Assembly (NCBI RefSeq): GCF_000372725.1
Contig: NW_005201213.1
Coordinates: forward strand, 62,001-126,000
Direction of reading: 5' to 3'
DNA: 64,000 nt
From: Emiliania huxleyi CCMP1516
Taxonomy: Eukaryota
Shown here: piece by piece, positions 2,535 through 64,000 of the stretch
Layout: every line of letters starts with the position of its first letter
Numbering within the stretch: the stretch's first letter is position 1
The notes under the pieces: model-generated
The model's database searches: none
What the model was told of the DNA's origin: nothing
What the model saw: only the letters and a program-made list of their open reading frames with translations
Position numbers and translations under genes: made by a program

Positions 2535-2592
2535 AGGGCGCATGCGAGAGAGAGAGAGAGAGAGACTCCGGCTCCGGCCGGTAGTCGACTGC

Positions 2593-35779: not shown

Positions 35780-36494
35780 GGTGCAAGCGGGGGCTGCGAG
35801 CGACCGAAGAGAAACTAGGAATTCCTACGGCAGGGACGCCCACTAGAGCAGTCAGGCCCGGACTGGACACCAGCGCGGCATGGGTGGACGCGGGACCAGA
35901 GAAAGAATGGACACCAGCTCACGGGAGGCGGTTCTCCTCCGACGAGGACGGGGACGGTCCCTTCGAGGCCGCGGCCGAAGGCGTCATCAAGTTCGACTCG
36001 GACGAGCGGTGCATGGCGCAGATCACGTGGCCGACGGCGGCGGCGACGCCACAACAGTCAACACGTGCTCCACGCCTCTTCCTCCACGGCTGGCGGCCGC
36101 TCTCGGACGGTACAGGTTGGTCACCGCTTGGTTCTACCCTCGCGACTGGTACACCTTGTACTGGGATGGCAGCTCGGCCGACAAGGTCGCAAGGCGCGCT
36201 GTCTTCCCGACGCTCGAGCACGACGACTACGACCCCGGCCCCCTCGCAGAGCGCATCAGGCGCGACAAGCGCGAGCGGTCTGACCGCTCCTCCGACGACT
36301 CCTCCTCCTCCGACCAAGACTCATGCGGCTCCGGCTCTACTAGCGAGGCGAATGACATATTCGACACCCTCGACGAACGACCATCTCGGCTACGGTTCCG
36401 ACTCCGGCTTCGGCTGGTAGTCGACAAGCTGCCGAGCCCTTATCACTGTGTGTGCCACATTTCTTGTTGGCTCCTAAAAATCTCTCTCTCTCTC
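35780..36494 (+). mobile_element. Longer copy of retroposed family B (5' boundary approximate)
   Basis: Ends in CTCCTAAAAATCTCTCTCTC and shares its 3' 100 bp with 2593-2692. Confidence 0.5.
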
Positions 36495-36593
36495 TTAGAC
36501 GCTTTATGGGGACCCGGCTCACCGCGCTGAAGAAGAAAACGCACCGTGCTGCAGGCGGTTCCTGCAGGCGTGCCACCCGGGCTGCCCCACACC

Positions 36594-45530: not shown

Positions 45531-46146
45531 AGAGTGAGACTGCAGTGAGACAACAGCGAGTGCAGTGAGACATCAGAGAGGCGCGGTGGGCGCCACTCGA
45601 GACGTGTGTGGCGGGAAGGAGAAGGGGGGGGGGGGGGGGGGGGGAGGTTTTCCTGGCCTTAAGCGAGCCACGGAGAACCGTGTTGGCCTTGTGAGTCTTT
45701 CGCGGGGCTGCCGGGACCGCGGGATAATGTTTTCCCGGGCAGGAACACCCTCCGGGGGTCTTTTAAACCAACTATGCCGGCCAAGCCCAGCTGTTCGGAG
45801 TATGGGAGATATAACGATATGATAACCTCCGCGGGCGCCGGCGGGGCCAGCGGGGAGCGGGCGGCGGGCCCAGCGCTCGGCCAGGGAACCCATATATCTT
45901 ATATGGTTATGGAATATGCCATAACGCAGAAGCTGCCCAGGCCAGCTGACCGGCAGTGTGTGTGTTACACTAGTGTGAGAGAGAGTTTTGTGCTTTGTTT
46001 GCACTAGTGTGGCGAGATGCCATGCACGCAATCCCATTCCGGCCAGCAATCCCGGACCACAGCAGCGTGTTCTCGGAGAGGCGAGGCAAAACCACTCACC
46101 GAAAAACAAACACTCTCTCTCTCTCACCGTACACCGACAGCTCTAG

Positions 46147-46463
46147 CAAACAAACAAACAGCTGCTCCACGAGACGTTCGGCGGCGGCTTCTCGCCCACC
46201 GCCGTTCTCAAGCTGCGCCGCCTCGCGCGCAAAGCCGCGCGCGGCAGCGTCGACCGCACGGCCTACTCGCCCAAGTACTCGCTTTCTTTTATGTCCCATC
46301 ATGCAGAGCGCATCTCTCTCTCTGTTGTGCGAGGCGTGAACCGCGCCATTCGCTCTCACCTGGCAACCCTGTCTGCACGTCTCGCGCGCGCGTGAACAGG
46401 GCTCCAGGCCCCAAATGACGTGTGAGTGTTAGAGTTGTTTGGTATTGCTAAAAATCTCTCTCT
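46147..46463 (+). mobile_element. 5'-truncated CRE-like (restriction-like endonuclease) non-LTR element, family A
   Basis: LLHETFGGGFSP...RISLSVVRGVNRAI, tail CTAAAAATCTCTCTC, TSD CAGCTCTAG at 46138-46146 and 46464-46472. Confidence 0.75.
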
Positions 46464-46691
46464 CAGCTCTAGTATAACAGTGTACAGCGGTGAGAATTAG
46501 TTCAACTGTGAACAGGGACATGCACACGCACACGCACACGCACATGTGCATGTGCACGCCACACGTGCATGCACATGCATATGCACATGCACGTGCACGT
46601 GCACGGGACGTGTCTGTCAGGGCCGCTTGCCTTCTCGCTTCTGCCCTGTTTGTCGGCCCCTTGCGAGACGCTCGAATCCCCCACTTCACCC

Positions 46692-47501
46692 ATGGATGTG
46701 CAGACGCGCAGCGAGTCTATCAACAAGCATGTTGCCTTCCGCATGTGCGTCGCCACCGTCCTTCTCGCCATCAGCGGCATCTTTGTCGTGGTTGCGTGTG
46801 CTGTGCCGGCATTCTCTGCCGGGACGCCAACCTTCATATATGAAGTGGACGGGAGCGATTACGGTGGGTCGGTTGGCTATGGCATCTGGGGCGTCGGCGG
46901 ATATCTGAACGAAGACAGCTGCGACGCGGTCAACGCGTTCATCACGCTTCGTGGTGGCGAAGAATGGTCTTGCTCGGACGTGGTCTCCTACCACTGCGAG
47001 TACGTCTCGTCGCCACGCATCCAGGAAGGCCTTGACAACATTCTCTGCGGCTACGCCCGCAGCATCGCATGGGAGGCGCGCTCCTGCGACGACGACGACG
47101 ACTGCGCCGAAGGCGACACCTGCGGCGGTGACGACAAGTGCTCCGGCGGCGCGGTCGGCAACTCGGCCACGCTCAAGCCCTGGATCGCGGGCGCGGAGGC
47201 GACATCGATCTTGACGGTTCTGCTTGTGTTCGTCGCCTTTGTGCTCGCCTGCCACGGCTCCCGCTCCAGGCGGCCCAAGCCCTGCCTCACCGCCGCCCTC
47301 GTCGCCGCGGCGGCGGTGCTCTCGGTCGTGCCGTTCGCGCTGTGGGAGTTGATCGCCTGCGTGACACTCGTGGACGACCCCGCAGACTTGGAGTGCGGCC
47401 GCTCGTGGTCGTACGCCCTCCAGGTCTGCGGCTTCCTGATCCTCATCATCGCCCTGTTCACGCTGCCCGGTGTTGAGAAGATTTGTGAGATTTGTTCTTA
47501 G
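46692..47501 (+). CDS. Four-TM claudin/PMP22-like membrane protein
   Basis: TM1, a large Cys-rich loop with GIW, three C-terminal TMs and a WSYAL motif before TM4. Confidence 0.6.
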   Translation: MDVQTRSESINKHVAFRMCVATVLLAISGIFVVVACAVPAFSAGTPTFIYEVDGSDYGGSVGYGIWGVGGYLNEDSCDAVNAFITLRGGEEWSCSDVVSYHCEYVSSPRIQEGLDNILCGYARSIAWEARSCDDDDDCAEGDTCGGDDKCSGGAVGNSATLKPWIAGAEATSILTVLLVFVAFVLACHGSRSRRPKPCLTAALVAAAAVLSVVPFALWELIACVTLVDDPADLECGRSWSYALQVCGFLILIIALFTLPGVEKICEICS

Positions 47502-48315
47502 TGTTGTGACCGCTCCACACGCGACACGGGCTCCTGTCGTTGCTTAGGGGTGGAGACGAGGAGACCCCTTGCCCCACCGCCTCGTGTGTGTAGACAAGTT
47601 TTTACTGGAATGATCCCAGCGGCACACGTCTACAAGGGGGGACTCCGAACGGCCTGGCATGTCGGCTAACTAGGTAGGTCATAGACCTTCCCGAACCCCG
47701 CATGTCCGCATCGGGGGGAGGGCGGCTCGTAACTGAGGTTCGCCGTCAGAGACAGTCGTCCTCCCCTACTCGGCCATTCCAACGGCCAGGCCGCTCGCTT
47801 AAGGCTGATTGGCTAGACGAGCGGTCTACCTCCAACGGGGCGGTCCGGGAACGCGTGGAACCTGCCCACCTCGGTGGGAGGTGGTTTGGCGCCGACGGAC
47901 CGCCCCCTCCACCACCCTCGCCCAGGGATCTACAACGCTGTCTTAAGGTCCGACCTGTGGGCTCCGCGCTCCGGCCTGCGCTCGGCACCGGGCACCTCTT
48001 AGCGCCATCGCCATGGACCTGCAAGCAGCGCCGGGCGACGACGACTTACCGCCTCCCGGTCCCCCTCGGCACACCTCCGCTGCTTAATGATTGACGACTC
48101 GAACCCGTGAAGCTTCCCCGTGCGCGGGTTACCCCGCACACGGGCCAGCCTGCCAGCCACGTATCCACGCAAGCGTGGTCCGCGCGCATGGCATACAGGC
48201 GTTCGCCAGACAGCGCAGAGGCTAGGCGACCGGGGAAGGACTAGCTCAAGGGCAACACAGCCGGACCACCTCCACACGTCTCCCAGCCTAAAATCCGGGG
48301 ACGTCCGAACGCGCG

Positions 48316-50023
48316 ATGAAGCTCCGCCTATCAAAGCTGCTGCGCGTGAGGCGCACGTCTCGGGCAACCTCAGTCCCATCGAGCTTCAATGTGGGAGGGG
48401 GCGATGATCTGCCCGCTCCAGTCGATCGGGCGGTGTCGGTGGAGGCAACCACGTTGTTAGAAGGCGTTGGTGGTGAGGCAGAGAGCGTGCCACAGCTCGG
48501 GTGGGGCGCCTCCAGTGACGAGGGTGAAGAGAGCGTGCCACAGCCCAAATATGGGACGTCCAGCGCCACGAAGCCGGTTGAAGACGACTACGGTGATCAA
48601 CCGGCTGATCATGAGCGAGAGTTTGCACCTGCATCTGATCTAGACCTCAAAGAGACCATTGCCGAGGCGGGAGCAAGGTTGGCAGAGGGCGGGAGGGCGT
48701 TGGCGAGCGCTCCCGCAGATTTAGACATCAGCGATACCAACGTGGCAGGCATCGGGAGCGAGGAGGACAAGGGTCTTCGCAAGTCGGCCGCGCAGAAGGA
48801 GGCGGCCTGGAAGGGCTGCGGTAGGGCGCCAGGCGTCGAGGTGTGGCGAGTTGAGCAGTTCGAAATCAAGCCGTGGCCAAAGGAGGAGCACGGCAAGTTC
48901 TACAAGGGCGACTCGTACATTGTCCTCCATACCCACAAAGAGGACGGCTCGACCAAGCTCCTCTACGACTTGTACTTCTGGCTGGGGCAAGTACGCACGT
49001 AGTAGGCAGGCCGTCAATCGGCGCCATCGTCGTGTGCCTCCTTCGAGACACTTTGAGACACACTACGCGGGCACACATTCTCACAGGTAGCAGGCGGTAT
49101 ACATTTACCAGACCACCACGGCCAACCCCGGCCAGGAGTCGACGGCGGACGAGCAAGGCACCGCCGCCTATAAGACGGTCGAGCTCGACGACTTGCTCGA
49201 TGGCGCTCCGATCCAGCACCGCGAGGTGTGACTGTCCCTTGAGAGCGACACGCGGTGTTGGAAACGTGATGAGTGTAGCATGGTTGCTCAGGTAATGCTT
49301 CACGAGAGCAACGCCTTTCGCTCGCTCTTCAAGACCGTCTCATACCTCGAGGGCGGCGTCGACTCGGGCTTCAACAAAGTCGAGCCCGGTGCCTTCAGCA
49401 GCCGCCTGCTGCAAATTAAGCGTGTCAAGAAGAACACGGCCATCATCCAGGTGCCCTGCCGGGCGACGTCTCTCAACCATGGCGACGTTTTTATCCTTGA
49501 CACGGGTGCGACCATCTACGCGTGGGAGGGCGCTGACTGCTCGCCGTTTGAGAAGCTCGCGGCCGACCAGGCTGCCTACGAACTCGCGTCTGAGCGCAAT
49601 GGCGCGTCGTCCATCTCGAGGGAGGCGGACGAGTACTTCTGGAGCAAGCTGGGCGGGGAACCGAGGCAGATCGCCAGCAAGGAGGAGGCGGGCGAGACGC
49701 TGCCAAAACCGCCCGAAGGCGGCGAGGCCGTCCTCTTCCAGCTCTCAGACTCGAGCGGCGAGCTCACGATGAGCGAGGTTGGACGCGGCAGCCTGGGGAA
49801 GGGCCTGCTCCACTCCGATGACGTGTACGTGTGCGACGCCGGAGGAGAGGGCCTGCTCGTCTGGGTCGGTGCGGGCGCCACGCAAAAGGAGCGCGCCGCG
49901 GCCATGAACACGGCGACTAAATACCTCAAGCAGTACGGCAAGAAAACTAGCACACCTGTAACGGTGCTCAAGGAGCACGGGGCCGACCGGAACAAGATCT
50001 TTCAGAAGGTCTTTGCCTACTGA
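48316..50023 (+). CDS. Gelsolin/severin-like three-domain actin-severing protein
   Basis: GVEVWRVEQF, GKFYKGDSYIVL, FWLG|ESTADEQGTAAYKTVELDD, YLEGGVDSGF and SLNHGDVFILD. Introns 48991-49135 and 49226-49291. Start uncertain. Confidence 0.9.
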
Positions 50024-51678
50024 AGCCGACTGGTGTACAACTAACAACACCCCAAAACGTGTATCGATGCGGAGCGCGTGACTCCCGAGGTGAGCTCCGG
50101 CGGGCGGGGTCTACGCTTTGTGCCAGAGCCCGACCTCACACCCATGCGCCATAGTCTAAGGGGGGGTTGAAAGAGGCTCGATAATATTACTTCCTTGTAT
50201 TCAATACGCACGCCGCCTTGGTAGAGGGTCCGCAGCGTCCTAATCTAAAATCTGAGGATTCAGGATTGAGGCATCGCTTCAGTGAGGTCAAAGTGAGTTT
50301 ATGGATGTGTGAGAACGGTACAGGACACGAGGAGTCACGCGGACCGACTCGTCGGTGACTCTGCTGCACGCCGTTTCATAGTTTTTCTCAGCGTGAGCGA
50401 GACGTGGAAGAGTGCCACCGTCGGGTAGGACGGTCGGCCCGGAGTATCAGAGTAGCCGTCGTGGTCGCGGCGAGCAGCGCCGGCCACTCCGGCGCCGCGT
50501 CGGCACCGTGGGAGCATGTCCACCGCCACTTCGCGGTCGCAGCGCTGTTTTGTCGCGAAACGCCGCATGTACCTCTGGCGAGCCAAAGATCGACTCGCAT
50601 GTCGATTTCGACTTGACGGGCGCATGGAGGCATCACGTCTCCATTGCCGCCGTCAAGTCGGAGCCAGTCTGCGGCGACCACAGCGCTTGCAGGAGGTACA
50701 TGCGAGCTTTTCAGAGTCAAGCGATTGCGCGGAATCCCACACTGGTGGATTTGGGATCCGTAGCCAGTGCATAGAGTTCTGTTCACTGTTCTCTCGAGGT
50801 TCTCGAGGTGGATATCCTTTGGCCGCGTTGGGTAGCGAGGATGTGAGTGTGTGTGTGACGCGAGGATTGGTGTAACCCGAGCCACGGAGGCGTGTTTTCT
50901 GACGGCCGACCGTCAGTGCACGGAGTTGCCCCTTCTCCGACTGCCCCGGCTAGTTCACGGGTTTCGCGGGAGTGACCCCATGCGTCAAACCCGAGACCTA
51001 GCGCGGGTGGGTTGGAGGGGGGCTCGCTGCAGGGAAGGGCTGTGTAAGAAGCCGATCCCCGTAGTCTGCCCCGCTCCTCCCCATCGGGCCGCATGAGCGG
51101 CCACGCCTCGCAGATTCGTTTTCGCGCCTGGGTCAGGCGCGCGGGGCATCCCCCGGGTCGCTCGACCAGCGGTCCGAAGATGTGGCCGCTATGCGAAGGA
51201 AAGAGTGGGGCCCTCGACGCCTCAGTCCGGCCCTCCGAGGGGGGAAGGGAATTGCGGGGTCCCCACGGGCGCCTCAGTTCGGCCCTCCCGAGGGGGGGGG
51301 GGGGGGGGGAACAAAGGGGTGGGGGGATTTGGGTTGTGGGAAAGGGTCTCGTTTCGTGCCCCGCAAAGCGTCTCGGTTCGTCGTCCCGCGCGGGGCCGGC
51401 CCGTGGGGCTCCAGAAGGGCCGGAATCCTCGCCGCTGGTGGCGTGTCGCAGTCTCGGCACACCCGTGATGTGCTCTGTGATGTATGGCTTCTAGCTGGAA
51501 ACGGTCTAGCTGGAGCGTGCGCGGGCCGCGGGCGGCGGGGCCCCGCGGGGCCGCGGCCCCGCGCGGCGGGCGGGTTGCCGCCGGCGGCGACGCTGTCGCT
51601 GCGATTTCGTGTCGTGTGTGCATGAAAAGTGCAGATGTAACTTAGCATGCGGGCGGACCCCTCACAGCTCACAGCTCA

Positions 51679-53107
51679 CTAAGCAGAGCCGCCGCGCCCC
51701 GCGCCCCGCCCACCCCGCCCGCCCGGCCCACCCCGCCCGCCCCGTCCACGCCCCCCTCTCCCCCCTCGCCCACCGACCGCCGCCGTGGCGCCCACGGGCT
51801 GGGCCTGGGGCACGGTGCGAGTGGGCGGCTGGTGGACAAACGTCGTCTGCGCCGCCACCAGCCGCCCAGTTGCGGCGATGGGCAGCGCTGGCTGGCGGCA
51901 GGCCGGGCAGTTGCTGTCGCGCTCCAGCACGCGCGGCGCACATGTCTCGCAGTACAGCGCGTGGCCGCACGCGAAGCGGACCGAGCGCGGCGCGTCGTAG
52001 CAGAGGTCACACTGGCGCTCCTCGGCCCCAACCTTCTCCTCCACCTCCCCCGCTGCTTCGACTAGCGCCTCCAGCCGCGGCAGCGCCTCTGCGAGCGGCA
52101 TCCGCCTCTTCTTCCTCACGAGAGCCAGCCCGACCACCAGCCGCGCCAACTCCTCGGCTTGCGCCGCCGACCAGCCCGCGTCGGCCGCCGCGATCGATCC
52201 TTCCGCCGTGTCGGGCTCCTCAAGCGCATCGTCGCACTCGTCGAGGAGGCCGACGGCGCCGCGGCCGGTCAGGGCGACGAGCAGCGTGATGCCGAGCGCA
52301 TAGCCGTCGGTCAGCGCTGACGCCTGCCCGCTCTGCGAGATGATTGGGTCCATGTACCCAAGCTTACCGAAGAGGCGCTGCGTCGACAGGTGCGACACCT
52401 GCTGGCTGCTGCCGGCCGTCGCCTCTGCCGCGCGCGCGAGGCCCACGTCGGCGAGGTAGCCGTTGCCGCGCTCGTCGAGCAGGATGTTGCCCGCCGAGAC
52501 GTCGCGGTGCAGGATCATGGGAGAGAGCGTGTGCAAGTAATGCAGCGCGCTTGCGGCGTCGCGCAGCACGCGGAGCCGCGCGGCGGAGGAGAGCGGCGGA
52601 GGCGGCGTCTCGAAACCGAGCATGCGGAGCCGCTGCAGCGCGGCCGGCGTGCGGTAGAGGCGGTCCTCGAGGCTGCCGCCGCGGCAGAGGGGGTAGACGA
52701 GGCACGCTCTCGCCGGTGCCAAGCAGACGCCGAGAAGAGGGAGCAGGGACCGGTGACACGCCGCGCTGAGCGTGCGCACCTCGCTCTGCAGCTCGGCGAG
52801 GCCTTGGGCGCCGACACCGACCAGCGCCGTCTTGACGGCGAACCCGCAAGCGACGCGCGGGAGAGACGGCAGCGCGTCGCAGCGATAGACGCGCCCAAAG
52901 CCGCCCTCGCCCACCTTGCGCGCCTCGGCAAAGCCGTCCGTCGCCGTAATCAGCTCGTCGAGAGGGACAGCGACGGGCGGCGCGGCGGCGGCGGCGAGGG
53001 CGGCGACACTCGCCGAAGCCGCCGCTGCCGCCGCTGCTGCCGTCGCCTCCGCTGCCGCCGCCTCTTGAGCCTCCGCCGCCGCCACGGCCGCCACCGCCGC
53101 CTCTACA

Positions 53108-53175
<68 letters not shown>

Positions 53176-56100
53176 CTCCGCCTCCGCTTCCGCCCTCATC
53201 CTCGCCTCCTCCCTCTCCCTTGCCGCCTCCTCCCTCGCCCTCGCCTCCGCCTCCTCCCTTGCCCGCGATGCCGCCTCCGCCTCCTCCGCCGCCCGCGCCG
53301 CCGCCTCCGCCTCCTCCGATGCCCGCGCCGCCCGCGCCTCCTCCGCCGCCCGCGCCTCCTCCGCCGCCCGCGCCTCGTCCGCCGCCCGCGCCGCCGCCTC
53401 TGCCTGCCTCGCCGCCGCCTTCTCCTCCTTCTGCCGCTGCCGCTTCAGCGGCTTGGCCAGGTCATCGCGCAGCAGCCGCGCCGCCCGCAGCGCCTCCGAG
53501 CCGTTGGCGGCGTCGACGTTCGCGTTGATCGCCGCCCTGAGCGCCTCGAGATCGGCGTCGCCTCGGCCGCACGCCTCAACCGCCTCGCGCAGCGCAGCCT
53601 CGGCAGCATCGCGCGCCTCCGCCGCCTCCGCAGCCGCTGCCGCCTCGCGTGCGGCTGCCGCGGCCTGTTCTACCACCGCCGTCTCCCCCTCAGCCTCTGC
53701 TGCGGTCGACGAGTGCTCCTCGAGGGCGCACACGCACGCGGCGTGGCCATTCTCCTCGGCCCAATGAAGCGCCGTGTTGCCGTTCGCATCGCGCGCCGCC
53801 GTGTCTGCGCCCGCCTGCAGCAAGCGCCGCACGACGGCGGTGCGGTTGAAGAAGGCGGCGCCCATCAGCGCGGTCCAGCCTTCGCTGCTCTGCAAGTTGA
53901 CCTCAGCACCATGTCGTATCAGCAAGTCGACCACCCGCTCGTGGCCCTGGAGGGCGGCGAGCGTCAGCGCGGTGTAGCCATTGCTGTCCTGCAAGTTGAC
54001 ATCAGCGCCGTGCTGGAGCAACACCTCGACCACCCGCTCGTGGCCGTGGACGGCGGCTTTCATCAGCAGCGTGATGCCGCTCGTCTCGCCCTTCTCGTAC
54101 GTCGCGTCGGCCCGCCCGCCGCCCTCGAGCCACGCCAGCACCGCCTCCTCCTTGCCTCCCTCAGCCGCTGCCACGACCGCGTCGGGGGCTGCCACGCCGC
54201 CGCTCGACGCCCGCCCCGCCGCCGCCGCCGGAGATAGCGTCTTCGCGACTCTCGGTCCAGCCGAGGAAGCGCCGCCGGAGGAAGCGCCGCCTGCGCCTGC
54301 GCCGCCGGCTGCCGCCGCAATGGGCCGTCCCGCCACCACCGACTCCTTGACGTGCTGCCGGAAGGCCTCGACGCACTCGGCGTGGCCCCTCTCCTTGGCC
54401 CAATGCAGCGCCGTCATGCCGCTCTCACTGCGCACCGCCGTGTCTGCGCCCGCCCGCAGCAAGCACCGCACGACGGCGGGGTGGTTGAAGGCGGCGGCGC
54501 CGATCAGCGCGGTCAAGCCGTTGCTGCTCTGCAGGTTGACCTCAGCACCGCGCCGTATCAGCAAATCGACCACCCGCTCGTGGCCATAGTGGGCGGCGCC
54601 CATCAGCGCGGTGCTGCTGACGCTGTCCTGCAGGTTGACCTCAGCGCCGCGCTGGAGCAGCAGCTCGACCACCCGCTCGTGGCCTTCGCTGGCGGCGTCC
54701 ATCAGCGCGGAGTCGCCCTCGCTGCTCTGCAGGTTGATCTCCGCGCCGCGCTGCAGCAACAGCTCGACCAGCCGCTCGTGGCCGTGGTTGGCGGCGCCCA
54801 TCAGCAGCGTGAGGCCGCTCACCTCGCCCTTCTCGTACGTCGCGTCGGCCCGCCCGCCGCTGTCAAGCCACGCCAGCACAGCCTCCTCCTCGCCCCGCTC
54901 AGCTGCTGCCACGACCGCATCGGGGGCTGTCGCGACACCGCTCGACGCCCGCTCCGCCGCCACCGCTGGAGACAGCGTCTTTGCAACTCTCGGTCCAGCC
55001 GAGGAAGCGCCGCCGGAGGAAGCGCCGCCTGCGCCTGCGCCGCCGGCTGCCGCCGCAATGGGCCGTCCCGCCACCACCGACTCCTTGACGTGCTGCCGGA
55101 AGGCCTCGACGCACTCGGCGTGGCCCTTCTCCTTGGCCCAACGCAGCGCCGTCTTGCCGCTCATACCGCGCGCCGCCGTGTCTGCGCCCGCCCGCAGCAA
55201 GCACCGCACGACGGCGGGGTGGTTGAAGAAGGCGGCGTTCATCAGCGCGGTGGAGCCTTTGCTGCTCTGCAAGTTGACCTCTGCGCCGTGCTGCAGCAGC
55301 AGCTCGACCACCCGCTCCTGGCCGTAGCGGGCGGCGTGCATAAGCGCGGTAGCGCCGTTGCTGTTCTGCAGGTTGACCTCAGCGCCGTGCCGCAGCAGCA
55401 GCTCGACCACCCGCTCGTGGCCCTGGAGGGCGGCGCCCATCAGCGCGGTGACGCCGCCGCTGTTCTGCTGGTTGATCTCAGCGCCGCGCCGCAGCAGCAG
55501 CTCGACCACCCGTTCGTGGCCCTGGAGGGCGGCGCCCATCAGCGCGGTGCCGCCGTCGCTGCTCTGCAGGTTGATCTCCGCGCCGCGCTGCAGCAACAGC
55601 TCGACCAGCCGCTCGTGGCCGTGGTTGGCGGCGCCCATCAGCAGCGTGAGGCCGCTCACCTCGCCCTTCTCGTACGTCGCGTTGACCCGCCCGCCGCCCT
55701 CGAGCCACGCCAGCACCGCCTCCTCCTCGCCTCGCTGAGCTGCTGCGACGACCGCATCGGAGACTGCCACGCCGCCGCTCGACGCCCGCCCCGCCGCCGC
55801 CGCCGGAGATAGCGTCTCCGCGACTCTCGATCCAGCCGAGGAAGCGCCGCCGGAGGAAGCGCCGCCTGCGCCTGCGCCGCCGGCTGCCATCGCCGTGGGC
55901 CGTGCCGCCACGACCGACTCCTTGACGTGCTGCCGGAACGCCTCGACGCACTCGGTGTGGCCTTGATCGTTGGCCCAATGCAGCGCCGTCTTGCCGCTCG
56001 CACTGCGCGCCGCGGTGTCTGCGCCTGCCTGCAGCAAGCGCCGCACGACGGCGGGGCGGTTGAAGAGGGCGGCGTACATCAGCGCGGTGTAGCCGTTGCT

Positions 56101-57354
56101 GTTCTGCAGGTTGATCTCAGCGCCGCGCCGAATCAGCAAATCGACCACTTGCTCGTTGCCGTTGCCGGCGGCGCAGATCAGCGCGGTGCGGCCGTCGCTG
56201 TCCCGCAGGTTGACCTCAGCGCCGTGCCGTATCAGCAGCTCGACCACCCGCTCGTGGCCTCGGAATGCGGCGAACATCAGCGCGGTGCTGCCGTTGCTAC
56301 TCTGCAGGTTGGCCTCTGCGCCGTGCTGCAGCAGCAGCTCGACCACCCGCTCGTGGCCTTTGACGGCGGCGTCCATCAGCGCGGTGATGCCGTTACTGTT
56401 CTGCAGGTTGAGCTCAGCGCCGCGCTGCAGCAGTAACTCGACCACCCGCTCGTGGCCTTCCTGGGCGGCGTTCATCAGCGCGGTGTGGCCGATGCTGTTC
56501 TGCAAGTTGACCCCCGCGCCGCGCCGTATCAGCAGCTCGACCAACCGCTCGTGGCCGTAGTTGGCGGCGCCCATCAGCAGCGTGAGGCCGCTCGCCTTGC
56601 CTCTCTCGTACGTCGCGTCGGCCCGCCCGCCACTGTCGAGCCACGCCAGCACCGCCTCCTCCTCGCCACGCTCCGCTGCTGCGCTAACCGCATCGGAGGC
56701 TGCCGCGGCACCGCTCGACACCGCCGGCGACAATTTACTCGGCCGCACCCGCACGCTCTCGCCGCCGCCCTCGAGCGCCACCGCGTACCGCCCGCCCTCG
56801 AAGCTCTGTGCCACGCCCCGCTGCCCGTTCAGCTCGGGGCGGGCCGAGAGCCCGCCGAGCACGACTCGCTGGCCGAGCAGCGGCGCGTCCACCGCTGCCG
56901 CTGCCGCGCCCGAGGAAGCGCCGCCCGCCCCTGCCCGGCCGTCTGCAGCCGCCGCCGCCTCCGACAAAACCTTGACGCACTCGGCGTGGCCCTTCTCCTT
57001 GGCAAACTGCAGCGCCGTCTTGCCGTGAAGAGTGCGCGCCGCGTCTGCGCCCGCCCGCAGCAAGCGCTGCACGACGGCGGGGTGGTTGAGGAGGGCGGCG
57101 ATCATCAGCGCGGTGCCGCCGTTGCTGTTCTGCAGGTTGACATCAGCACCGTGCTGCAGCAGCAGCTCGACCACCCGCTCGTGGCCGTAGCCGGCGGCGG
57201 TCACCAGCAGCGTGAGGCCGCTGATGCCGTCTCTCTCGTACGTCGCGTCGGCCCGCCCGCCGCCCTCGAGCCACGCCAGCACCGCCTCCTCCTCGCCACG
57301 CTCAGCCGCTAGCACGGCCGCATCCGAGCAGCTCAGGGAACCAGCACCCACCAT
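51679..57354 (-). CDS. Multi-ankyrin + coiled coil + IRAK/Pelle-like kinase + RING + RGG-tail protein
   Basis: Five ankyrin blocks, GEGGFGRVY, AVK, HRDVSAGN, DVG, GYMDP, and CDLC...CGH..C..C...CPAC. Intronless ORF. Confidence 0.9.
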
Positions 57355-57930
57355 GGTCCCCGCTGTGTCGGCCCCGTGAACCGTCAGCTGTGAGAGCTCC
57401 TGTGTGTCTCTCACACCCTCACTGTCGGCGTATGCGTGCTTCTTGTTTTCTTATCACCCTATCTGTGAAGAGTGCGTAAGGGGTTGTTTTTGTCATGAGC
57501 TTGCCTGCGGCGAGGGCGGTCGAGTGCACGGAGCTAAGTGCCTCGCCGTCCTCGCAGGAGTCGCTTAGGCGGCTCCCGCGTGGTGTACACCTGTGTTAGT
57601 GCCAGTGCGCACCAGTCCCGTGCCTATAGTGTCGTGCGAGGAGTTGTTCGTAAGATTCTTTTTGTCAGTGGACAGTGCGCGCCAGTCCCGTGCCCAGGTA
57701 CACCACAGGCAAAAAGAATTTTAGAAGAGGCGCGGCACCGGCTGAGACGGAAGGGGGGGGGGGGGCAACATGGCACGGATGCTGCATTTCCGAGCGTCAA
57801 CATTTCACGACATCTGGTGGCTCCATCCGAAGCCGTTGTCGACAAAGTTCAGAGGTTCGCGAGAGTTGAACTCTACCCAGCTGCCGAGGTGGGCTGATAG
57901 CGGCGTGGCCAGCAAGAGTGTAACAGAGGG

Positions 57931-58653
57931 CTAGGCTGGTACGTTAGCTGGTGGCCGAGTAGGAGCTGCCACCCCCATGCGGCGTGCGGCACGCACGAGC
58001 CGCGCCACCGCGATTCGGCGTCGGAGGTGCTGCCACCGCCGCCGGAACAACCCCGCGTCGCAGGGCACCGCTCCCATGCCACAGAGCACGAGGCGTAAGC
58101 TCACCCTGCGGTGCTCCTCCGATGGATAGAGTGGCACCGCCACCGTGTCGAAGAGGGTGTACGGCGGCTGCCGCAGCACCTGCGGCGTGTGTTGAACCAA
58201 GGAGCGGAAAGGAACGCCGCCACGGGCGGGCTCCTGCTCGTGGACCATGGCGATGGCGATGCGCCGGTCCATCGCCGCTTGTACGAGGCGCGCGACGGCG
58301 CCGCCGGCGTCCAGAAAGGTCTTGTCGTTCAGGTAGAGCATGAACACGACGTGGCCCTCCGGGGCCGCATTGGCGAGCGCCTCCTCCGCCTCGCGGATTG
58401 TGACTACATCGGCGTTGGCAGCCAGGCCGCGCCCCTGCCTCGCGCTCGCCGCCGACTTGATCTCTTCCGACAATTCGAAAGCGCCCTCGTTGTCACGGCA
58501 GTGTAGGAGGGTGACAGGTCCGCTGAGGGCGACGGGCACCACCTCCCCGGGCACCGTCACGCCTGCTGCAAGCTCGGCCGTGCGCCTCTCATTTGTGTCA
58601 CACCACGCGGAACGCATCTCCATCGCTTCGGTGAAGGGGGTGAACCGTGCCAT
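57931..58653 (-). CDS. Possible TIR-like alpha/beta domain protein or gene fragment
   Basis: FMLYLNDKTF...LVQAAMD..IAIAMVHE...GGVPF...TP...AVPLY pattern, recalled from algal TIR-like domains. Confidence 0.4.
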   Translation of the reverse strand: MARFTPFTEAMEMRSAWCDTNERRTAELAAGVTVPGEVVPVALSGPVTLLHCRDNEGAFELSEEIKSAASARQGRGLAANADVVTIREAEEALANAAPEGHVVFMLYLNDKTFLDAGGAVARLVQAAMDRRIAIAMVHEQEPARGGVPFRSLVQHTPQVLRQPPYTLFDTVAVPLYPSEEHRRVSLRLVLCGMGAVPCDAGLFRRRWQHLRRRIAVARLVRAARRMGVAAPTRPPANVPA

Positions 58654-61143
58654 CCTCGATCGCCGTGCAAAGCTCGCTTCCGAGCTCTCACGCCGCGCGT
58701 AGGGCCCTTAGGGGCCTAGAGAACACAACCCCCTCTCTCTTTTCTCCCAGTAAGCTATAAGTACGTACGCTATTACGAGAAGAAGCCGACGGGAGTTCAT
58801 TATAGCTCCGAGTAGAGGGGGCGGTCTGCTGCTAGGGGAAACCCGGAGCGCGGAGCCAACCCTCGGAGACCCGTGTTTACTTTAAGGCCCTTGCCCTGCG
58901 AACGCGCGCCCCCCCCTAGCTAGGGGTCAGGGCTCTCTAGCCCGTAGCCCGATGCCAATCATCCGGCCCGCTGGGTGTGCTTCTTAGCCCCCCGGCCCTG
59001 GATGTGCGGTTACTGACTGCACTCCAAGTGCTCCAAGTTGTGGTAATTCTTTCTTTCTGCACACGCGATTTCACCTTCCGTTCGGATCGGGGGGGGGGTA
59101 GGCGCGTGCTAACCACCCCAGAGGTGGGGCAGTGAGCGGTGGCCTGCTGAGGAAGGCGCGCGGGCCACCGCTGGAGGTAATTGATGGTCGGCTCGTGGTC
59201 GAACTTGATGGAGCCATCCGGATTGTCGCGCCAGCAATCCTTGTTGCAGCCGAGCTCGGGGTCGGTGACGATCTGCCGCTGGCTCCCCGTCAGTGGCTGC
59301 ATCGAGTGCCGGCCCATGAGCGCTGCCAACTCGTCCTGTGCGAGTGGGCAGCCGCTCCGGAGCGCGAGCGTCAGCCTCGCCATGTCCGCTTGCGACGGAA
59401 GCATGCACGCGATGAACTCGAAGAGCGATCGCTCGCCAAAGATAGGGTGCCCACAGGACCCCAAAAAAAGAAAAGAAAGGTGACGAGGCGTGCCGTGTGC
59501 CAGCAGAGTTGGGCGCGCGCGGCGCGACGGCGCCCGCGAGGGAAGGCGCGGGTGCAGCGGCCGCCGGCGGTCGTACCGCCCGTCCCCCCTCGGCGTTATT
59601 TGTCTCTGTCGTCTCCGCCTCCCCAATCTCGGGATCCTGGGCACGGCGCTCATCTGCGCCCCGGTCCCCGCCTCGCCCTCGCTGTCGTCTCTCTCCTCTT
59701 CTTCCTCCTGTACGAGTCATTCTTCGGAGACCGTACAGCTGTGCATCGCATCGATCTTCCTTTTCGTGGGAGCCAGCTGGTGGGAGCACTAGCTTGAAGC
59801 CCGCCCAGCAGCTCCCTAAGTCGTTAGTATCACCCGTTTCGCTCGCCCACTGCCGCTCCCTGCTCCCGGGGGGGGCGCAGCTTTCCGCACGATCGGGCAC
59901 AGCGGGTGAGGCCTCGCTCTATTGCCGCCCTCGCCGCCGCGTATCTCGCGTGGCGAGTAGGTAAGGACCCGAGCGAGTCGACCTCTTGTTGAGTGCGCGC
60001 CGAGCGACATGGCCAGCTCTCCAGCTCGTCGTTTGGTCACCAGGAGTGGAGCGAAAGCCGCCTGAACCTCAGGACGTGCCACGTGGACCCATCCTTCCTT
60101 GTCCCACTTATCGAATTTGCCGAGGCGAGAGTACTCGTCCGAATTCCGGCGTTTTTCATATTTCCCACCCTACTACACTATTCCCGCGTGAGGGGTCACC
60201 ACTGCATAGTGCGATTGGTCCTGCCGCGCACACCACAAAACGTATTTAGCAAACAACAATAGACGTCCAGGCTCACACAGTTGACACGGTCGGGGAAAGT
60301 CGAGCTTCTCCGCATGACTCGCTTTTTGGAGATACCGCTTCCCGGAGGCATGCTTGTTTCCTTTTGACGTCTGCGCCTTGTCTGTCGTGTGAATCGTGCG
60401 TGTGCGAGAGCCTTTTGTTGTGAAATTCCTTTTGACAGGGGGGGGGGGGGGGGAGGAACCTCTTCGTCCCAAGTGCCAAGAGCGCGCGCCAGCCTGTGTG
60501 TGCAGTCTCAAATAGATAGCGCCTCCCAATCGCCACCACGCACCATGGCGCTGCGCGAACAGCGCCGGGCGATGACGGCTATTACTTACCTGTTGGCTCT
60601 CTTCACAACAGGCTGTGTGTTTTGACCCTGTTGTTCGCTTGCTGATATGTGTCGTCTGATGTGTCACTGTGTGCGTCATATCAGTCTTGATAACAAGTAC
60701 GGTCGATCCGTCAAAGCGATACACTCGTTCCTATCACATATTCTCCCACCCACCGGGACGCAAAACGCTCTCGGCGAGAGCCACAAGAAGGCGTCCACAC
60801 AGCAAGCCGCTCGTCGGACAGGCGTGCTCGCTCGATGCCGGCGAGCGCATTGCGCACGCTTTGGACGGTGGCGAAGCCAAAAACACCGATGGTGGCCGTC
60901 CGCTGGCGTGAGCGGCGGCGGTCGAGACCTCACCCTTCTCGCCGACGACCCAACTTACGCGGAACAACCCAGGCCCAACCCAACCCAAAAAGTACGATTC
61001 TCCTGTTGGGCCCTCGGCAACGTTTGTCGGAGCATAGAACCGGCCTCTCTAGAGCTGAACTTCTCCCTTCCTCTGCTTGTGTGCGCCTGCGGCGCGATTT
61101 TCCCTCCCTATCCTCTTCACAGCGGGGGTTTGACTTCTTTGAG

Positions 61144-61585
61144 AGAGAGAGATTTTTAGCAATACCAAACAAATCTAACACTCACACGTCATTTGGGGCC
61201 TGCCTGGAGCCCTGTTCACGCGCGCGCGAGACGTGCAGACAGGGTTGCCAGGTGAGAGCGAATGGCGCGGTTCACGCCTCGCACAACAGAGAGAGAGATG
61301 CGCTCTGCATGGTGGGACATAAAAGAGAGCGAGTACTTGGGCGAGTAGGCCGTGCGGTCGACGCTGCCGCGCGCGACTTTGCGCGCGAGGCGGCGCAGCT
61401 TGAGAACGGCGGTGGGCGAGAAGCCGCCGCCGAACGTCTCGTGGAGCAGCAGGTTGAAGTTGTTGCGCTTGACAAAGATCGCGTCGTGGTAGAAACCGCG
61501 ATGCGCCTTGACGTAGCCGTGGCCGGTCTTGTGGGAGAAGGGTTGGCCGGGCTGCCCGCGCGTTGCAGCCCTTTTTTTTGTTTTG
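61144..61585 (-). mobile_element. CRE-like family A copy
   Basis: Reverse complement of the 63310-63743 region. TSD TCTTTGAG at 61136-61143 and 61586-61593. Confidence 0.75.
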
Positions 61586-61840
61586 TCTTTGAGTCCCTCT
61601 CCTTCGCTCTTCAGGGGCGCTGGCGCCGGCAACATCTGCTTGGAGGGCAACATCTGCTTGGCGTGAGGAGTGGGGAGGGTGTCTGTGGTGGGCTGTAGTC
61701 CTACTACTACTACTACACACACACACACACACACGCGGCTTGTTGGCCCTCTTCACAGCAGGCTGTGTTTCAAGGCCTGTTCTGCGCTCGCTCACCGCCG
61801 GGCGCCCAGCTTCTCGCCACTGCCTCGTCCTTGTCCTGGC

Positions 61841-62893
61841 ATGTCGGCGTCCGGCGCCTTCCCGGCGGCAGCGGGGACGTCATCCAGCAAAGCCGGCGCT
61901 CCTGCGCCCGCCGCGTCGGGCCAGTCCGTCAACAAGCGGTGCGTGCGCGCGCGCCCCCTCCACACGCGCGCGAGCACAGGAGCTGCCCGGACCGCCGCAA
62001 GAGAGGCTGAGCAGAGGAGAAAAGGGGGCGCGCGCGCTGTGGTCTGTGCGGGCGGCGCAAGCCATTTTGGCGCGGCGAGGCGCGTCCCCGCCGCCCTGCG
62101 CCCCGCATGACTGAGCTGCCCTGGCGCGTCCCGCTGCGCAGGCTGCAGTCGGAGCTCATGTCGCTCATGATGGGCGGCGACGCGGGCATCTCTGCGTTCC
62201 CTGACGGGGACAACATCTTTCAGTGGACGGGCACGATCACGGGCGGCGCTGGGACGGTGCGCCGCTGTGAGGCCTCGCGATCCGCCGCAGCGCTGCTGCG
62301 CGCGCACGCAACGCTCTTGCATCGCGCGCGCTGACGCCGCGCTCCCTCGCAGGTGTACGAGGGCCTCACCTTCAAGCTGTCGCTCAAATTCCCGACTGGC
62401 TACCCGTACGAGGCGCCCGCGGTCACCTTCAACCCGCCCAGCTGCTTCCACCCCAACGTGGACCAGTACGGCAACATCTGCTTGGACATCCTCAAGGAGA
62501 AGTGGTCGGCCGTGTACAACGTGCGCACCATCCTCCTCTCCATCCAGTCGCTGCTTGGTGCGCGCCTCTCGGGAGACACACACACGCACACACGTACCGC
62601 GGAGGGGGAGCCAGCGCTCTCCCCCTTCCCCCTCGCCGCCTGCCCGAGTCTCGCTCACAAGCGCTCGGCGCGCCATCTCAGGGGATCCAAACCTCGACTC
62701 GCCGCTCAACGGGCACGCCGCCTCGCTATGGCCGAACCAGGCTGACTTCAAAAAGGCGCGCCTCTCTCCGCGCCCGCGGAGCGGCTCGCGCCGCCGCTCC
62801 TCCGACCCCCTCTCCGACCCCCCCCTTCCCCCCATGGAGCAGGCGCTGCTCAAGCACAAGAGCAGCTTGCCCTCCGGCGAGCGGAGGCCGTAG
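61841..62893 (+). CDS. UBE2C: Ubiquitin-conjugating enzyme E2 C (UbcH10-type)
   Basis: [29 protein letters not shown] and [24 protein letters not shown]. Introns 61939-62141, 62257-62352, 62558-62681 and 62756-62842. Confidence 0.9.
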
Positions 62894-63166
62894 GACCGGC
62901 GCGCAGCCGCGGCGGCGGGCGATGCGGCGCCCAGGCCAACAGATGCCGCGGCGCGCTTAGAGAGCCCACGCGCGGAGCGGAGGGCGAGAGCAGAGCGCTC
63001 GGAGAGAGGTCGGGTGTAAGTCGGGGGCGATTCGCAGGGCCAGGGCGGGATGTGAGCTTGTTTGCGGGAGGCAGTGCGGGTTAACGCGCGACATGCAGAG
63101 TTGACTTTTAGAGGCTGATGCTGATGCTGTTCTACACACCTTGATCCTTGTGGCTTACAGATACAG

Positions 63167-63743
63167 CAAACAAGGACGCCCCTCCTCAAGACCTCGAGCT
63201 CAAGACCTCCTCGCCGGGCGTTGGCAACGCCTCGAGTGGCGGCACGCCCGCCTCCGTTGGCCACTCCTACGCCTTCGGCAACACCGAAGAAAAGGCCCGC
63301 CGCCTAAACATGGGCTGCAAGGCGCGCGGGCAGCCCGGCCAACCCTTCGACCACAACGGACCGGCCACACGGCTACGTCAAGGCGCATCGCGGTTTCTAC
63401 CACGACGCGATCTTTGTCAAGCGCAACAACTTCAACCTGCTGCTCCACGAGACGTTCGGCGGCGGCTTCTCGCCCACCGCCGTTCTCAAGCTGCGCCGCC
63501 TCGCGCGCAAAGTCGCGCGCGGCAGCGTTGACCGCACGGCCTACTCGCCCAAGTACTCGCTCTCTTTTATGTCCCACCATGCAGAGCGCATCTCTCTCTC
63601 TGTTGTGCGAGGCGTGAACCGCGCCATTCGCTCTCACCTGGCAACCCTGTCTGCACGTCTCGCGCGCGCGTGAACAGGGCTCCAGGCCCCAAATGACGTG
63701 TGTGAGTGTTAGAGTTGTTTGGTATTGCTAAAAATCTCTCTCT
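63167..63743 (+). mobile_element. Longest CRE-like family A copy (frameshifted)
   Basis: DLELK...HETFGGGF...RISLSVVRGVNRAI. TSD CAGATACAG at 63158-63166 and 63744-63752. Confidence 0.75.
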
Positions 63744-64000
63744 CAGATACAGACCCCGTACTGCCCTTACACATCTGATCAGACATCTGTGAAGTGTCAT
63801 CTCACCTTCCCCGTTCCCAAGATTCCGGACCGAACACTTTTACACAATAAATAATAAATAAATACAACGGACATCCCAAGCTACGGCTGGGTCGAGGACA
63901 GACACGTCCCCACCTTTGCAGGATTTTGCAAAAGCGAGGGGGGAGGGCGCATCGAACACTTTTACACGGCTCATTCCAAGGCCTAGTTTTTCTTTTTCGC

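What the first reader, a model, noticed from the sequence alone, without database searches (positions are those of the whole stretch)
46138..63752. CRE-like LINE copies are each capped by (CAAA)n filler at different 5' truncation points
Seen: three copies with separate TSDs (CAGCTCTAG, CTCAAAGA, CAGATACAG) and a common CTAAAAATCTCTCTC tail. Between the upstream TSD and the element lie CAAACAAACAAACA (46147-46160), CAAAACAAAAAAAA (61585-61572, minus strand) and CAAACAA (63167-63173). Two TSDs fit CAGnnnnAG. Knowledge: the encoded C-terminus resembles restriction-like endonuclease non-LTR elements. Inference: biased extra-nucleotide or reiterative synthesis completes integration, and could also be the source of the intron-forming fillers.
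Basis: partly seen in the sequence, partly recalled or inferred. Interest (0 to 1): 0.8.

Follow-up and report, generated by a model that had tools for sequence, protein, structure and literature searches.

The report
Retrotransposon copies capped by family-specific filler
Short, broken copies of an R2-like jumping gene in a marine microbe nearly all carry a small A/C-rich spacer at their cut-off end, likely stitched in by the element's own copying enzyme, which leaves a natural record of how such elements finish inserting.

Summary
Three 5'-truncated copies (46161-46463 +, 61144-61571 -, 63174-63743 +) share a ...GGTATTGCTAAAAATCTCTCTCT end. Each has its own 8-9 bp target-site duplication (TSD) and 14, 14 and 7 nt of A/C-only filler between the upstream TSD and the element.

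The pattern is general. Of 59 non-redundant copies with a TSD of 6 nt or more (56 from metagenome contigs), 43 have A/C-rich filler, 8 have none, 4 are mixed and 4 are long or inverted. The filler is quasi-periodic. It is missing, together with the element, from an empty allele of copy 3.

A sister family with the same tail but another 3'UTR carries A/G-rich (AAG)n filler instead (6 of 7). So the filler is element-specified, not target DNA and not generic host repair.

Full-length relatives (1393-1632 aa) carry reverse-transcriptase (RT) motifs and a C-terminal D..E.K nuclease motif. A model matches R2 retrotransposon proteins (Z 15.5-17). Insertion is dispersed, with a weak CA|C preference; CAGnnnnAG is not general. 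"CRE-like" was not tested, and the intron idea has no support here.

Best reading, inferred: reiterative, element-templated synthesis at second-strand priming. Strict templating by the 3'UTR U/G motif is only loosely supported. No full-length 5' end was recovered.

The parts
46138..46146 (+). Copy 1, upstream target-site duplication CAGCTCTAG
   Evidence: Sequence; repeated at 46464-46472
46147..46160 (+). Copy 1, 5' junction filler CAAACAAACAAACA
   Evidence: longer copies read ...CAACCT before GCTGCTCC here
46161..46463 (+). Copy 1 of family A, 303 nt: last 77 codons of the ORF, 3'UTR and tail CTAAAAATCTCTCTCT
   Evidence: 98.7% identical to P0007 residues 576-652
46464..46472 (+). Copy 1, downstream TSD CAGCTCTAG
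61136..61143 (-). Copy 2, TSD on the element's 3' side (CTCAAAGA on the minus strand)
61144..61571 (-). Copy 2 of family A, 428 nt: intact last 114-117 codons, 3'UTR and tail
   Evidence: 99-100% identical to the C-terminus of P0004-P0007
61572..61585 (-). Copy 2, 5' junction filler CAAAACAAAAAAAA (minus strand)
   Evidence: loose end at 61562 shows that other copies continue with AACATGGGCTGCAAGG
61586..61593 (-). Copy 2, TSD on the element's 5' side
63158..63166 (+). Copy 3, upstream TSD CAGATACAG
63167..63173 (+). Copy 3, 5' junction filler CAAACAA
   Evidence: The empty allele in run X19 leaves no room for it (record 21)
63174..63743 (+). Copy 3 of family A, 570 nt. It starts just after the nuclease E-V-K motif and is frameshifted. 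By my reading of the copy 3 DNA against P0007's residues, it carries a 14-nt internal duplication near its start
63744..63752 (+). Copy 3, downstream TSD CAGATACAG
35784..36495 (+). Sister family B copy: 3'UTR ending TTTCTTGTTGGCTCCTAAAAATCTCTCTCTCTCTCT. Mirrored at about 39202-39914 (-) in an inverted duplication
35715..35783 (-). Inverted ORF-end piece (86% identical to family A positions 409-478) abutting the B 3'UTR, in a twin-priming-like arrangement. Mirrored at 39915-39983 (+)
2593..2692 (-). Truncated family B copy, about 100 nt, with tail
2693..2701 (-). Family B 5' junction filler AAGAAGAAG. It is preceded by GCATGCGAG (2702-2710); GCATGCG recurs at 2539-2545 beyond a complex 3' flank
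   Evidence: read by eye

Best explanation
These are 5'-truncated insertions of an R2-like (restriction-like-endonuclease) non-LTR retrotransposon whose 5' junctions carry a family-specific, quasi-periodic A/C-rich filler, likely made by reiterative, element-templated reverse transcription when the second DNA strand is primed.

Shown:
- The element inserts by a target-primed-type route. It has TSDs of mostly 8-9 bp, a fixed 3' end with a (CT)n tail of variable length, variable 5' truncation and a weak CA|C target preference.
- About three quarters of TSD-bounded copies have 2-31 nt of A-rich filler with a C every 3-5 nt.
- Filler and element are absent together from an empty allele of copy 3.
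- A sister family with the same tail but a different 3'UTR has (AAG)n-type filler instead.

Inferred:
- The filler has the sense of first-strand cDNA made on the U/G-rich (family A: GUUGUUUGG) or U/C-rich (family B: UUUCUUG, GGCUUCU) motif that lies 10-30 nt upstream of the tail.
- I propose that the nicked top strand is extended on that RNA motif with repeated slippage, as telomerase does on its template or as in an aborted twin priming.
- The polymerase then switches to the 3' end of the truncated first-strand cDNA.
For: Element class:
- Family members start at an FADD motif and end in the window's ORF.
- Full-length relatives of 1393-1632 aa show RPLG.GE, NMYN, QGCPLA, ADDT and D..E.K motifs and an N-terminal Cys/His stretch.
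- The AlphaFold model of P0059 (pLDDT 81.6) matches R2 proteins over 530-554 residues, Z 15.5-17.0. The next unrelated row has Z 10.5. Foldseek E-values are 3.5e-9 to 5e-6.

Generality of the filler:
- 103 family A tails were found.
- 75 are non-redundant with both junctions on the contig.
- 59 have a TSD of 6 nt or more. Of these, 43 have A/C-rich filler, 4 mixed, 8 none and 4 long or inverted.
- With a TSD of 8 nt or more, 41 of 53 have A/C-rich filler.
- Filler composition is A 345, C 122, G 11, T 24, against flanks with about 25% of each base.
- Filler frequency does not depend on copy length: 16 of 28 copies under 40 nt, 20 of 22 at 40-80 nt, 7 of 9 longer.

Order within the filler:
- 69% of the A-runs between Cs are 2-4 nt long, against 34% in shuffles (0 of 2000 shuffles reach this).
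- 21 of 46 fillers start with ACAA or AACA, against 10.5 expected (0 of 2000).

Family specificity:
- Family A has 43 A/C-type fillers and 1 A/G-type. Family B has 0 A/C-type and 6 A/G-type (Fisher p = 4e-7).
- The C-versus-G base counts give p = 8e-13.
- Two further B-type fillers were read by eye: AAGAAGAAG in the window and GAGAGA in L011.

Templating:
- The mean longest match to the reverse complement of the family's own 3' end is 5.48 against 5.12 for family A (3 of 500 shuffles reach it) and 5.14 against 4.32 for family B (9 of 500).
- B fillers show no signal against family A's 3' end.
- The filler of the family B copy in L071 starts with AACAAGAAA, the exact reverse complement of B's UUUCUUGUU.

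Top-strand priming on the RNA does occur. Copies L006, L052 (second copy) and L093, and the window's B copy, carry an inverted element piece at the 5' side.

Slippage is plausible. The (TC)n tail varies from 8 to 20 nt over 99 junctions.

Empty allele: a 467-nt contig of run X19 joins 62823-63131 and 63744-63875 with 26 letters between. That equals 63132-63157, so the TSD is present once with no element and no filler (table 8, record 21).
Against: - Strict copying of GUUGUUUGG predicts A-runs of 2 and 3. The observed mode is 3-4, and CAAAAC is common.
- Copies of the GATTTGTTTGG subfamily do not show longer A-runs than the GAGTTGTTTGG subfamily; they tend the other way (n = 5 against 26).
- The match-length enrichment is small.
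- Family B rests on 7 automatically called junctions plus 2 read by eye.
- In the three inverted family A copies the inverted piece starts where the very short direct piece ends. Their start near the motif may therefore be geometry, not a preferred priming site, and they carry almost no filler.
- No full-length element or true 5' end was recovered, so a 5'-terminal repeat cannot be excluded.
- Most metagenome copies come from a few assemblies, and only short copies assemble. The sample is therefore biased towards copies of 24-170 nt.
- Six of the 59 TSDs are only 6-7 nt long and could be chance matches.
Confidence: 0.45

Rival explanations
1. The filler is the retained true 5' terminus of the full-length RNA. 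On this reading, family A transcripts would start with a (CAAA)n-like repeat and family B transcripts with (AAG)n. The reverse transcriptase would jump from an internal position to that 5' end, or short RNAs with internal deletions would be copied, so each copy is an internal-deletion derivative and not a simple truncation.
For: - The filler is family-specific.
- The TSD-proximal start is preferred: ACAA or AACA in 21 of 46 fillers.
- Filler frequency does not depend on the truncation point.
- The strict 3'UTR template fits the A-run lengths poorly.
- From recall, not from a call: R2 protein is known to bind both 5' and 3' RNA segments.
Against: - Fillers differ widely in sequence and length (2-31 nt) and do not share one terminal sequence.
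- Copies only 24-40 nt long would need a jump across the whole RNA.
- 8 of 59 copies have no filler at all.
- No full-length 5' end was seen that would show such a repeat.
Confidence: 0.2
2. The filler is an untemplated terminal addition by the element's reverse transcriptase, made at run-off of the cDNA or before the top strand engages the cDNA. Each family's enzyme would have its own nucleotide bias: A with some C on the top strand for family A, and A with some G for family B.
For: - R1 and R2 junctions carry non-templated nucleotides, added either at run-off or before second-strand synthesis (PMC2718515; passages read).
- The A-run lengths do not fit any one template.
- Family A and B proteins are diverged. 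The one relative of family A whose sequence I read (P0019) is 65% identical to it; no family B protein was identified.
Against: - The order within the filler is not random: A-runs of 2-4 nt make up 69% against 34% in shuffles, and there is a start bias.
- Fillers reach 31 nt.
- The R2 additions are described there as being 'of any sequence'.
- A bias confined to two bases, with a different second base in two related enzymes, has no precedent that I found.
Confidence: 0.2
3. Host double-strand-break repair (polymerase-theta-type templated insertion, or end joining) makes the filler while sealing the 5' junction.
For: - Such repair makes short templated or snap-back insertions (established knowledge, recalled).
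- A few junctions carry non-A/C inserts or inverted pieces: L042, L077, L093 and L101.
Against: - One host would not give A/C filler to one family and A/G filler to the other, unless the filler is copied from nearby element DNA.
- The filler stays the same in copies of 310, 437 and 571 nt, where the 3'UTR lies hundreds of bases from the junction.
Confidence: 0.05
4. The A/C tracts are pre-existing microsatellites at the target sites.
For: None beyond the tract's resemblance to a microsatellite. One ambiguous case is L044, whose flank itself reads AAACAAACAA.
Against: - The tract lies inside the TSD pair in 43 of 59 copies.
- The empty allele of copy 3 has no room for it.
Confidence: 0.01

Closest known systems
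R2 and other restriction-like-endonuclease (RLE) non-LTR retrotransposons
   Same: - One large protein with an N-terminal Cys/His stretch, an RT, a linker and a C-terminal D..E.K nuclease.
- Best structural matches are R2 proteins over 530-554 residues.
- 5' truncation, and extra nucleotides at 5' junctions (PMC2718515; passages read).
   Different: - It does not insert into rDNA or any single target: 55 TSD-bounded target sites were reconstructed, and they share only a weak CA|C preference.
- TSDs are mostly 8-9 bp, and the tail is (CT)n.
- No conserved CCHC knuckle is visible before the nuclease in alignment A3.
- The filler is long, ordered, limited to two bases and family-specific, whereas R2 additions are described as of any sequence.
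- Sequence identity to R2 is only 11-14%, and Pfam RVT_1 is below its threshold.
   Same: RLE-type architecture. This is recalled for CRE; no CRE sequence was compared here.
   Different: CRE-clade elements sit in spliced-leader RNA genes (recalled). These copies are dispersed next to ordinary genes. Clade membership by RT phylogeny was not tested.
Twin priming of LINE-1 (5' inversions)
   Same: Some copies have an inverted element piece between the upstream TSD and a short direct piece, with the expected geometry: L006, the second copy in L052, L093, and the window's B copy at 35715-36495. The proposed origin of the filler is an aborted, slipping version of the same top-strand priming.
   Different: LINE-1 uses an APE-type nuclease and an A-tail. 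Ordered family-specific filler is not part of the twin-priming description as I recall it, and it did not turn up in the listing.
Telomerase-like reiterative copying and microsatellite 3' tails of stringent-type LINEs
   Same: Repeated short units (CAAA, CAA, AAG) and a (CT)n tail of variable length (8-20 nt) both point to a slipping polymerase on a short template.
   Different: Here the repeats sit at the 5' junction, are irregular, and their template is not identified.

Membership tests
RLE-type (R2-like) non-LTR retrotransposon | Reverse transcriptase domain with the palm motifs | tested here: met
   Alignment A3 shows RPLG.GE, D..NMYN, QGCPLA, (A/G)DDT and K..LG motifs. Pfam RVT_1 gives only a weak hit in P0059 (E = 5e-4, below the cut-off). 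The fold matches R2, LINE-1 and group II RTs. This was shown for relatives 29-36% identical to the window's family. P0007 itself begins at the FADD motif.
RLE-type (R2-like) non-LTR retrotransposon | C-terminal PD-(D/E)XK restriction-like endonuclease after the RT and linker | tested here: met
   D...E.K/R is conserved in 6 of 6 long relatives, and P0007 has DLAEP..NEVK. Model range 1-764 aligns to R2Bm residues 508-1107, that is through the C-terminal nuclease, with Z 15.5-17. Catalysis was not tested.
RLE-type (R2-like) non-LTR retrotransposon | N-terminal zinc-finger DNA-binding region | tested here: inconclusive
   P0042, P0055 and P0075 have Cys/His patterns near the N-terminus. There is no Pfam hit, and this part was not modelled.
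RLE-type (R2-like) non-LTR retrotransposon | CCHC knuckle between the linker and the nuclease | tested here: not met
   No conserved cysteines lie in the stretch before D..E.K in A3. Only an LGD...RH(N/D) pattern is kept. That this motif is typical of R2 is recalled, not tested.
RLE-type (R2-like) non-LTR retrotransposon | Insertion hallmarks of target-primed reverse transcription: fixed 3' end, variable 5' truncation, TSDs, no terminal repeats | tested here: met
   59 of 75 copies have a TSD of 6-14 nt (mode 8-9). Start positions are spread over the 570-nt reference. All copies share the tail.
CRE clade | Site-specific insertion in spliced-leader genes | tested here: not met
   55 TSD-bounded target sites were reconstructed. 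They share only a weak CA|C preference.
CRE clade | RT groups with CRE1, SLACS and CZAR in a phylogeny | not tested
R2 clade proper | Insertion at the 28S rDNA R2 site | tested here: not met
   The window copies lie beside protein-coding genes. The targets are diverse.

The most novel reading that the evidence does not exclude
An R2-like retrotransposon builds its own 5' junction by telomerase-style reiterative reverse transcription. The cut top strand is extended on a short U-rich motif of the element's own 3'UTR, slipping several times, and the product bridges to the first-strand cDNA. Each family therefore writes a signature (CAAA-type or AAG-type) at every insertion, which gives a readable natural record of second-strand priming in RLE LINEs.
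Probability: 0.35. Interest if true: 0.8.

Novelty: new variant of a known kind. Interest (0 to 1): 0.62.

Why it matters
How non-LTR retrotransposons finish integration is poorly understood. The open steps are second-strand cleavage, second-strand priming and 5' junction formation; the abstract of PMC6895275, seen in the listing, says as much.

In this family most insertions carry an ordered, two-base, family-specific tract at exactly that junction. Genome sequence alone therefore reports on the step. Comparing families, or mutating the suspected RNA motif, would show whether the element's RNA templates the start of second-strand synthesis.

It is also an RLE-type element that inserts in a dispersed way. 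Most described RLE elements are target-specific (abstract of PMC4640811, seen in the listing).

The practical effect on the host genome is many copies of 24-100 nt next to genes.

Tried and rejected
- No whole genome is held for this window, so a genome-wide census was replaced by one metagenome scan.
- Pfam found nothing in the window's ORF pieces, in P0007 or in the three full-length relatives.
- A profile search against PDB sequences found nothing relevant.
- A word-index search for longer proteins with the N-terminal 400 residues of P0007 found none.
- tblastn of long relatives against the 120 loci and the window found only C-terminal pieces, so no full-length element or 5' end was recovered.
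- The first read-laying over 18 kb was swamped by repeats. The second, over 2.9 kb, gave the empty allele only through table 8; the joint itself was not among the rows shown.
- RNA folding of the last 124 nt of families A and B gave weak z-scores (-2.0 and -1.6) and no shared structure.
- The prediction that the GATTTG subfamily should have longer A-runs than the GAGTTG subfamily failed.
- The ESM Atlas look-up gave only unnamed clusters carrying RVT_1.
- This scan's earlier findings held nothing for this genome, this sequence or these words.
- The literature searches listed no paper describing ordered, family-specific 5' filler. Only listings and abstracts were seen, except PMC2718515 (passages) and PMC6007223 (abstract and outline), so this is not proof that it is unpublished.

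Full report
**Observation**

The three copies are as described. Copy 1 is 46161-46463 (+), copy 2 is 61144-61571 (-), and copy 3 is 63174-63743 (+). All end in ...GTTTGGTATTGCTAAAAATCTCTCTCT.

Each is flanked by its own direct repeat:
- Copy 1: CAGCTCTAG at 46138-46146 and 46464-46472.
- Copy 2: CTCAAAGA at 61586-61593 and 61136-61143.
- Copy 3: CAGATACAG at 63158-63166 and 63744-63752.

Between the upstream repeat and the element lie CAAACAAACAAACA, CAAAACAAAAAAAA and CAAACAA.

These tracts are not element sequence. At the break points of copies 1 and 2 the longer copies read on with other letters. Contigs of the organism's own sequencing runs also continue past copy 2's break with AACATGGGCTGCAAGG. 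Upstream of copy 3's first base the related protein reads NEVKLW|TPLLK.

The 15-nt tail occurs 6 times in the window against 0.01 expected.

**What the element is**

The ORF end in copy 2 is 99-100% identical to the C-terminus of database proteins. The longest of these is P0007, 652 aa, from a cluster of 556 member sequences. It starts at ...GFADD... and contains DLAEP..NEVK about 170 residues before its end.

Pfam does not recognise the window's ORF pieces, P0007 or the three full-length relatives; the only hits among the relatives were below threshold. An exhaustive HMMER search found 1102 relatives, including three apparently full-length proteins of 1393, 1496 and 1632 aa at 29-36% identity.

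Their alignment shows an N-terminal Cys/His stretch, the RT motifs RPLG.GE, D..NMYN, QGCPLA and ADDT, and a conserved D...E.K/R near the C-terminus.

An AlphaFold model of the 858-aa relative P0059 (pLDDT 81.6) has R2 retrotransposon proteins as its top seven Foldseek matches (E = 3.5e-9 to 5e-6). Re-alignment gives Z 15.5-17.0 over 530-554 residues, with model range 1-764 on R2Bm residues 508-1107. The next unrelated chain has Z 10.5 and LINE-1 ORF2p has Z 9.6.

So the family has the RT-linker-restriction-like-endonuclease build of R2-type elements. A conserved CCHC knuckle is not visible. Whether it belongs to the CRE clade was not tested.

**Generality of the filler**

| Step | Count |
|---|---|
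| Family A tails found, 3 of them the window's | 103 |
| Dropped: ran off a contig end inside the element, had too little flank, or repeated a flank already seen | 28 |
| Copies left | 75 |
| Direct repeat of 6 nt or more found next to the tail end | 59 |
| No such repeat | 16 |

TSD lengths among the 59 were 6 nt (4 copies), 7 (2), 8 (23), 9 (18), 10 (6), 11 (3), 12 (2) and 14 (1).

Of the 59 copies:
- 43 have filler that is at least 85% A+C.
- 4 have mixed filler.
- 8 have none.
- 4 have long or inverted inserts.

With a TSD of 8 nt or more the figure is 41 of 53. The filler is 2-31 nt long. Its composition is A 345, C 122, G 11, T 24, while the flanks have about 25% of each base. Filler frequency does not depend on copy length: 16 of 28 copies under 40 nt, 20 of 22 at 40-80 nt, 7 of 9 longer.

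Letters between joints in the organism's own runs show the same kind of tract at other copies, for example ACAAAACA and CAAACAACAA (table 5c). These are anecdotal.

**The filler is ordered and element-specified**

Within fillers, A-runs between Cs are 2-4 nt long in 69% of cases, against 34% in shuffles (0 of 2000 shuffles reach this). Twenty-one of 46 fillers start with ACAA or AACA, against 10.5 expected (0 of 2000).

A sister family B ends in TTTCTTGTTGGCT(T/C)CTAAAAATCTCTCTC. Three copies lie in the window. Seven of its junctions have a TSD, and their fillers are AAGAAGAG, AAGAA, AACAAGAAAGAAAGAAGACTAC, GAAGAAGAGCC, AAGAAGG, GCTGGGCTC and AAGAA. Two more were read by eye: AAGAAGAAG at 2693-2701 and GAGAGA in L011.

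By copy, family A has 43 A/C-type and 1 A/G-type filler, and family B has 0 and 6 (Fisher p = 4e-7). By base, C against G gives p = 8e-13.

One host with two fillers rules out target DNA and makes generic host repair unlikely.

**Empty allele**

A 467-nt contig of run X19, which carries the same organism label, matches 62823-63131 and 63744-63875 with 26 contig letters between. The window has 612 bases there (table 8, record 21). Twenty-six is the length of 63132-63157. The contig therefore has the TSD once, and neither the element nor the 7-nt filler.

I could not see the 26 letters themselves.

**Target and tail**

The base before the TSD is A in 58% of sites, the one before that is C in 64%, and the first TSD base is C in 78%. 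That last figure is partly forced by overlap with the tail's last C. CAGnnnnAG fits 4 of 55 TSDs. The (TC)n tract of the tail varies from 8 to 20 nt over 99 junctions, as expected of a polymerase that slips at initiation.

**Mechanism (inferred)**

The filler on the top strand has the sense of first-strand cDNA. The reverse complement of family A's last 43 nt contains ACCAAACAAC, and that of family B contains CCAACAAGAAA and TAGAAGCC.

The longest matches of fillers to the reverse complement of their own 3' end exceed shuffles modestly:
- Family A: 5.48 against 5.12 (3 of 500 shuffles reach it).
- Family B: 5.14 against 4.32 (9 of 500).

B fillers show no signal against family A's 3' end. The filler of the family B copy in L071 begins with the exact 9-nt complement of B's UUUCUUGUU.

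Copies with an inverted element piece show that the top strand can prime on the RNA. These are L006, the second copy in L052, L093, and the window's B copy with the inverted ORF end at 35715-35783.

I therefore favour top-strand priming on the U-rich 3'UTR motif with repeated slippage, followed by a switch to the cDNA end.

Several results count against a strict version of this:
- The A-run mode is 3-4, not 2-3.
- The GATTTG subfamily does not behave as predicted.
- Family B numbers are small.
- The inverted family A copies may start near the motif only because their direct parts are so short.

The two main rivals remain open because no full-length copy was recovered. One is a retained 5'-terminal repeat of the full-length RNA. 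The other is untemplated addition with a bias specific to each enzyme.

In R1 and R2, junction additions are reported as non-templated and of any sequence (PMC2718515; passages read). That differs from the ordered two-base tracts here.

**Intron idea**

By my reading:
- Copy 1 lies about 230 bp upstream of an ATG at 46693.
- Copy 2 lies about 250 bp upstream of the start of the ubiquitin-conjugating-enzyme-like gene.
- Copy 3 lies about 270 bp downstream of that gene's stop.

No call tested a link to introns.

**Verdict**

- The element is an R2-like, dispersed RLE retrotransposon.
- The filler is a family-specific product of integration.
- The templated, reiterative mechanism is the best-supported but unproven reading (confidence 0.45).
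- I found no description of such filler in four literature searches (mostly listings and abstracts only).

Noticed in passing
window 35300-40280, N gap at 37444-37543: A large inverted duplication surrounds a 100-N gap. Both arms carry the family B copy and part of a gene-like region. The right arm is about 700 bp longer between the gap and the tail. It may be an assembly artefact or a real palindrome.
   Followed up: no
window 2539-2710 (-): After its tail, the truncated family B copy is followed by a 29-nt inverted piece of its own sequence and a second (TC)9 tract. Only then does the repeat GCATGCG recur. This is a compound or rearranged insertion.
   Followed up: partly
window 58565-58699 (+): A fragment of a third related family. 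It is 100% identical over 39 aa to the C-terminus of P0019 and 56% identical to P0007. No CTAAAAATC tail follows it, and its 3' end and junctions were not defined.
   Followed up: partly
L010/L055, L011, L018, L029, L035, L069: A recurrent motif of about 22 nt, GGGACTGGCGCGCACTGGCAC, lies beside many insertions. It is either another repeat family or a favoured landing site.
   Followed up: no
L001 and L036: The same sequence ...GGGTCCTGTGGGCACCCT... directly precedes a family B 3' part in L001 and a family A 3' part in L036. This could be a SINE-like 5' module joined to either tail.
   Followed up: no
L033 (986-1052), L042, L014, L056, L011: Very short copies sit in tandem or next to each other. 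In L033, two copies share the same flanking repeat CAGACAGAG. This suggests repeated or stuttering insertion at one site.
   Followed up: no
window 50200-61000: Most of this stretch is highly repeated in the organism's own runs, with summed contig depths 100-1000 times those of the neighbouring genes. It includes a stop-free frame of 1923 codons at 51679-57450 (-) that I did not examine.
   Followed up: no
window 63174-63230: Copy 3 carries a 14-nt internal duplication (GAGCTCAAGACCTC) relative to the protein P0007, plus several 2-nt indels that break its frame. Copy 2's frame is intact. This comes from my own comparison of the DNA with the residues.
   Followed up: partly
runs X2, X4, X7, X13, X17, X18: Poly(A)-selected and total metatranscriptomes from several marine studies hold 78-81% of the sampled words of copy 3. 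The 3' region is therefore present in RNA, either as element transcript or as read-through from host genes.
   Followed up: no
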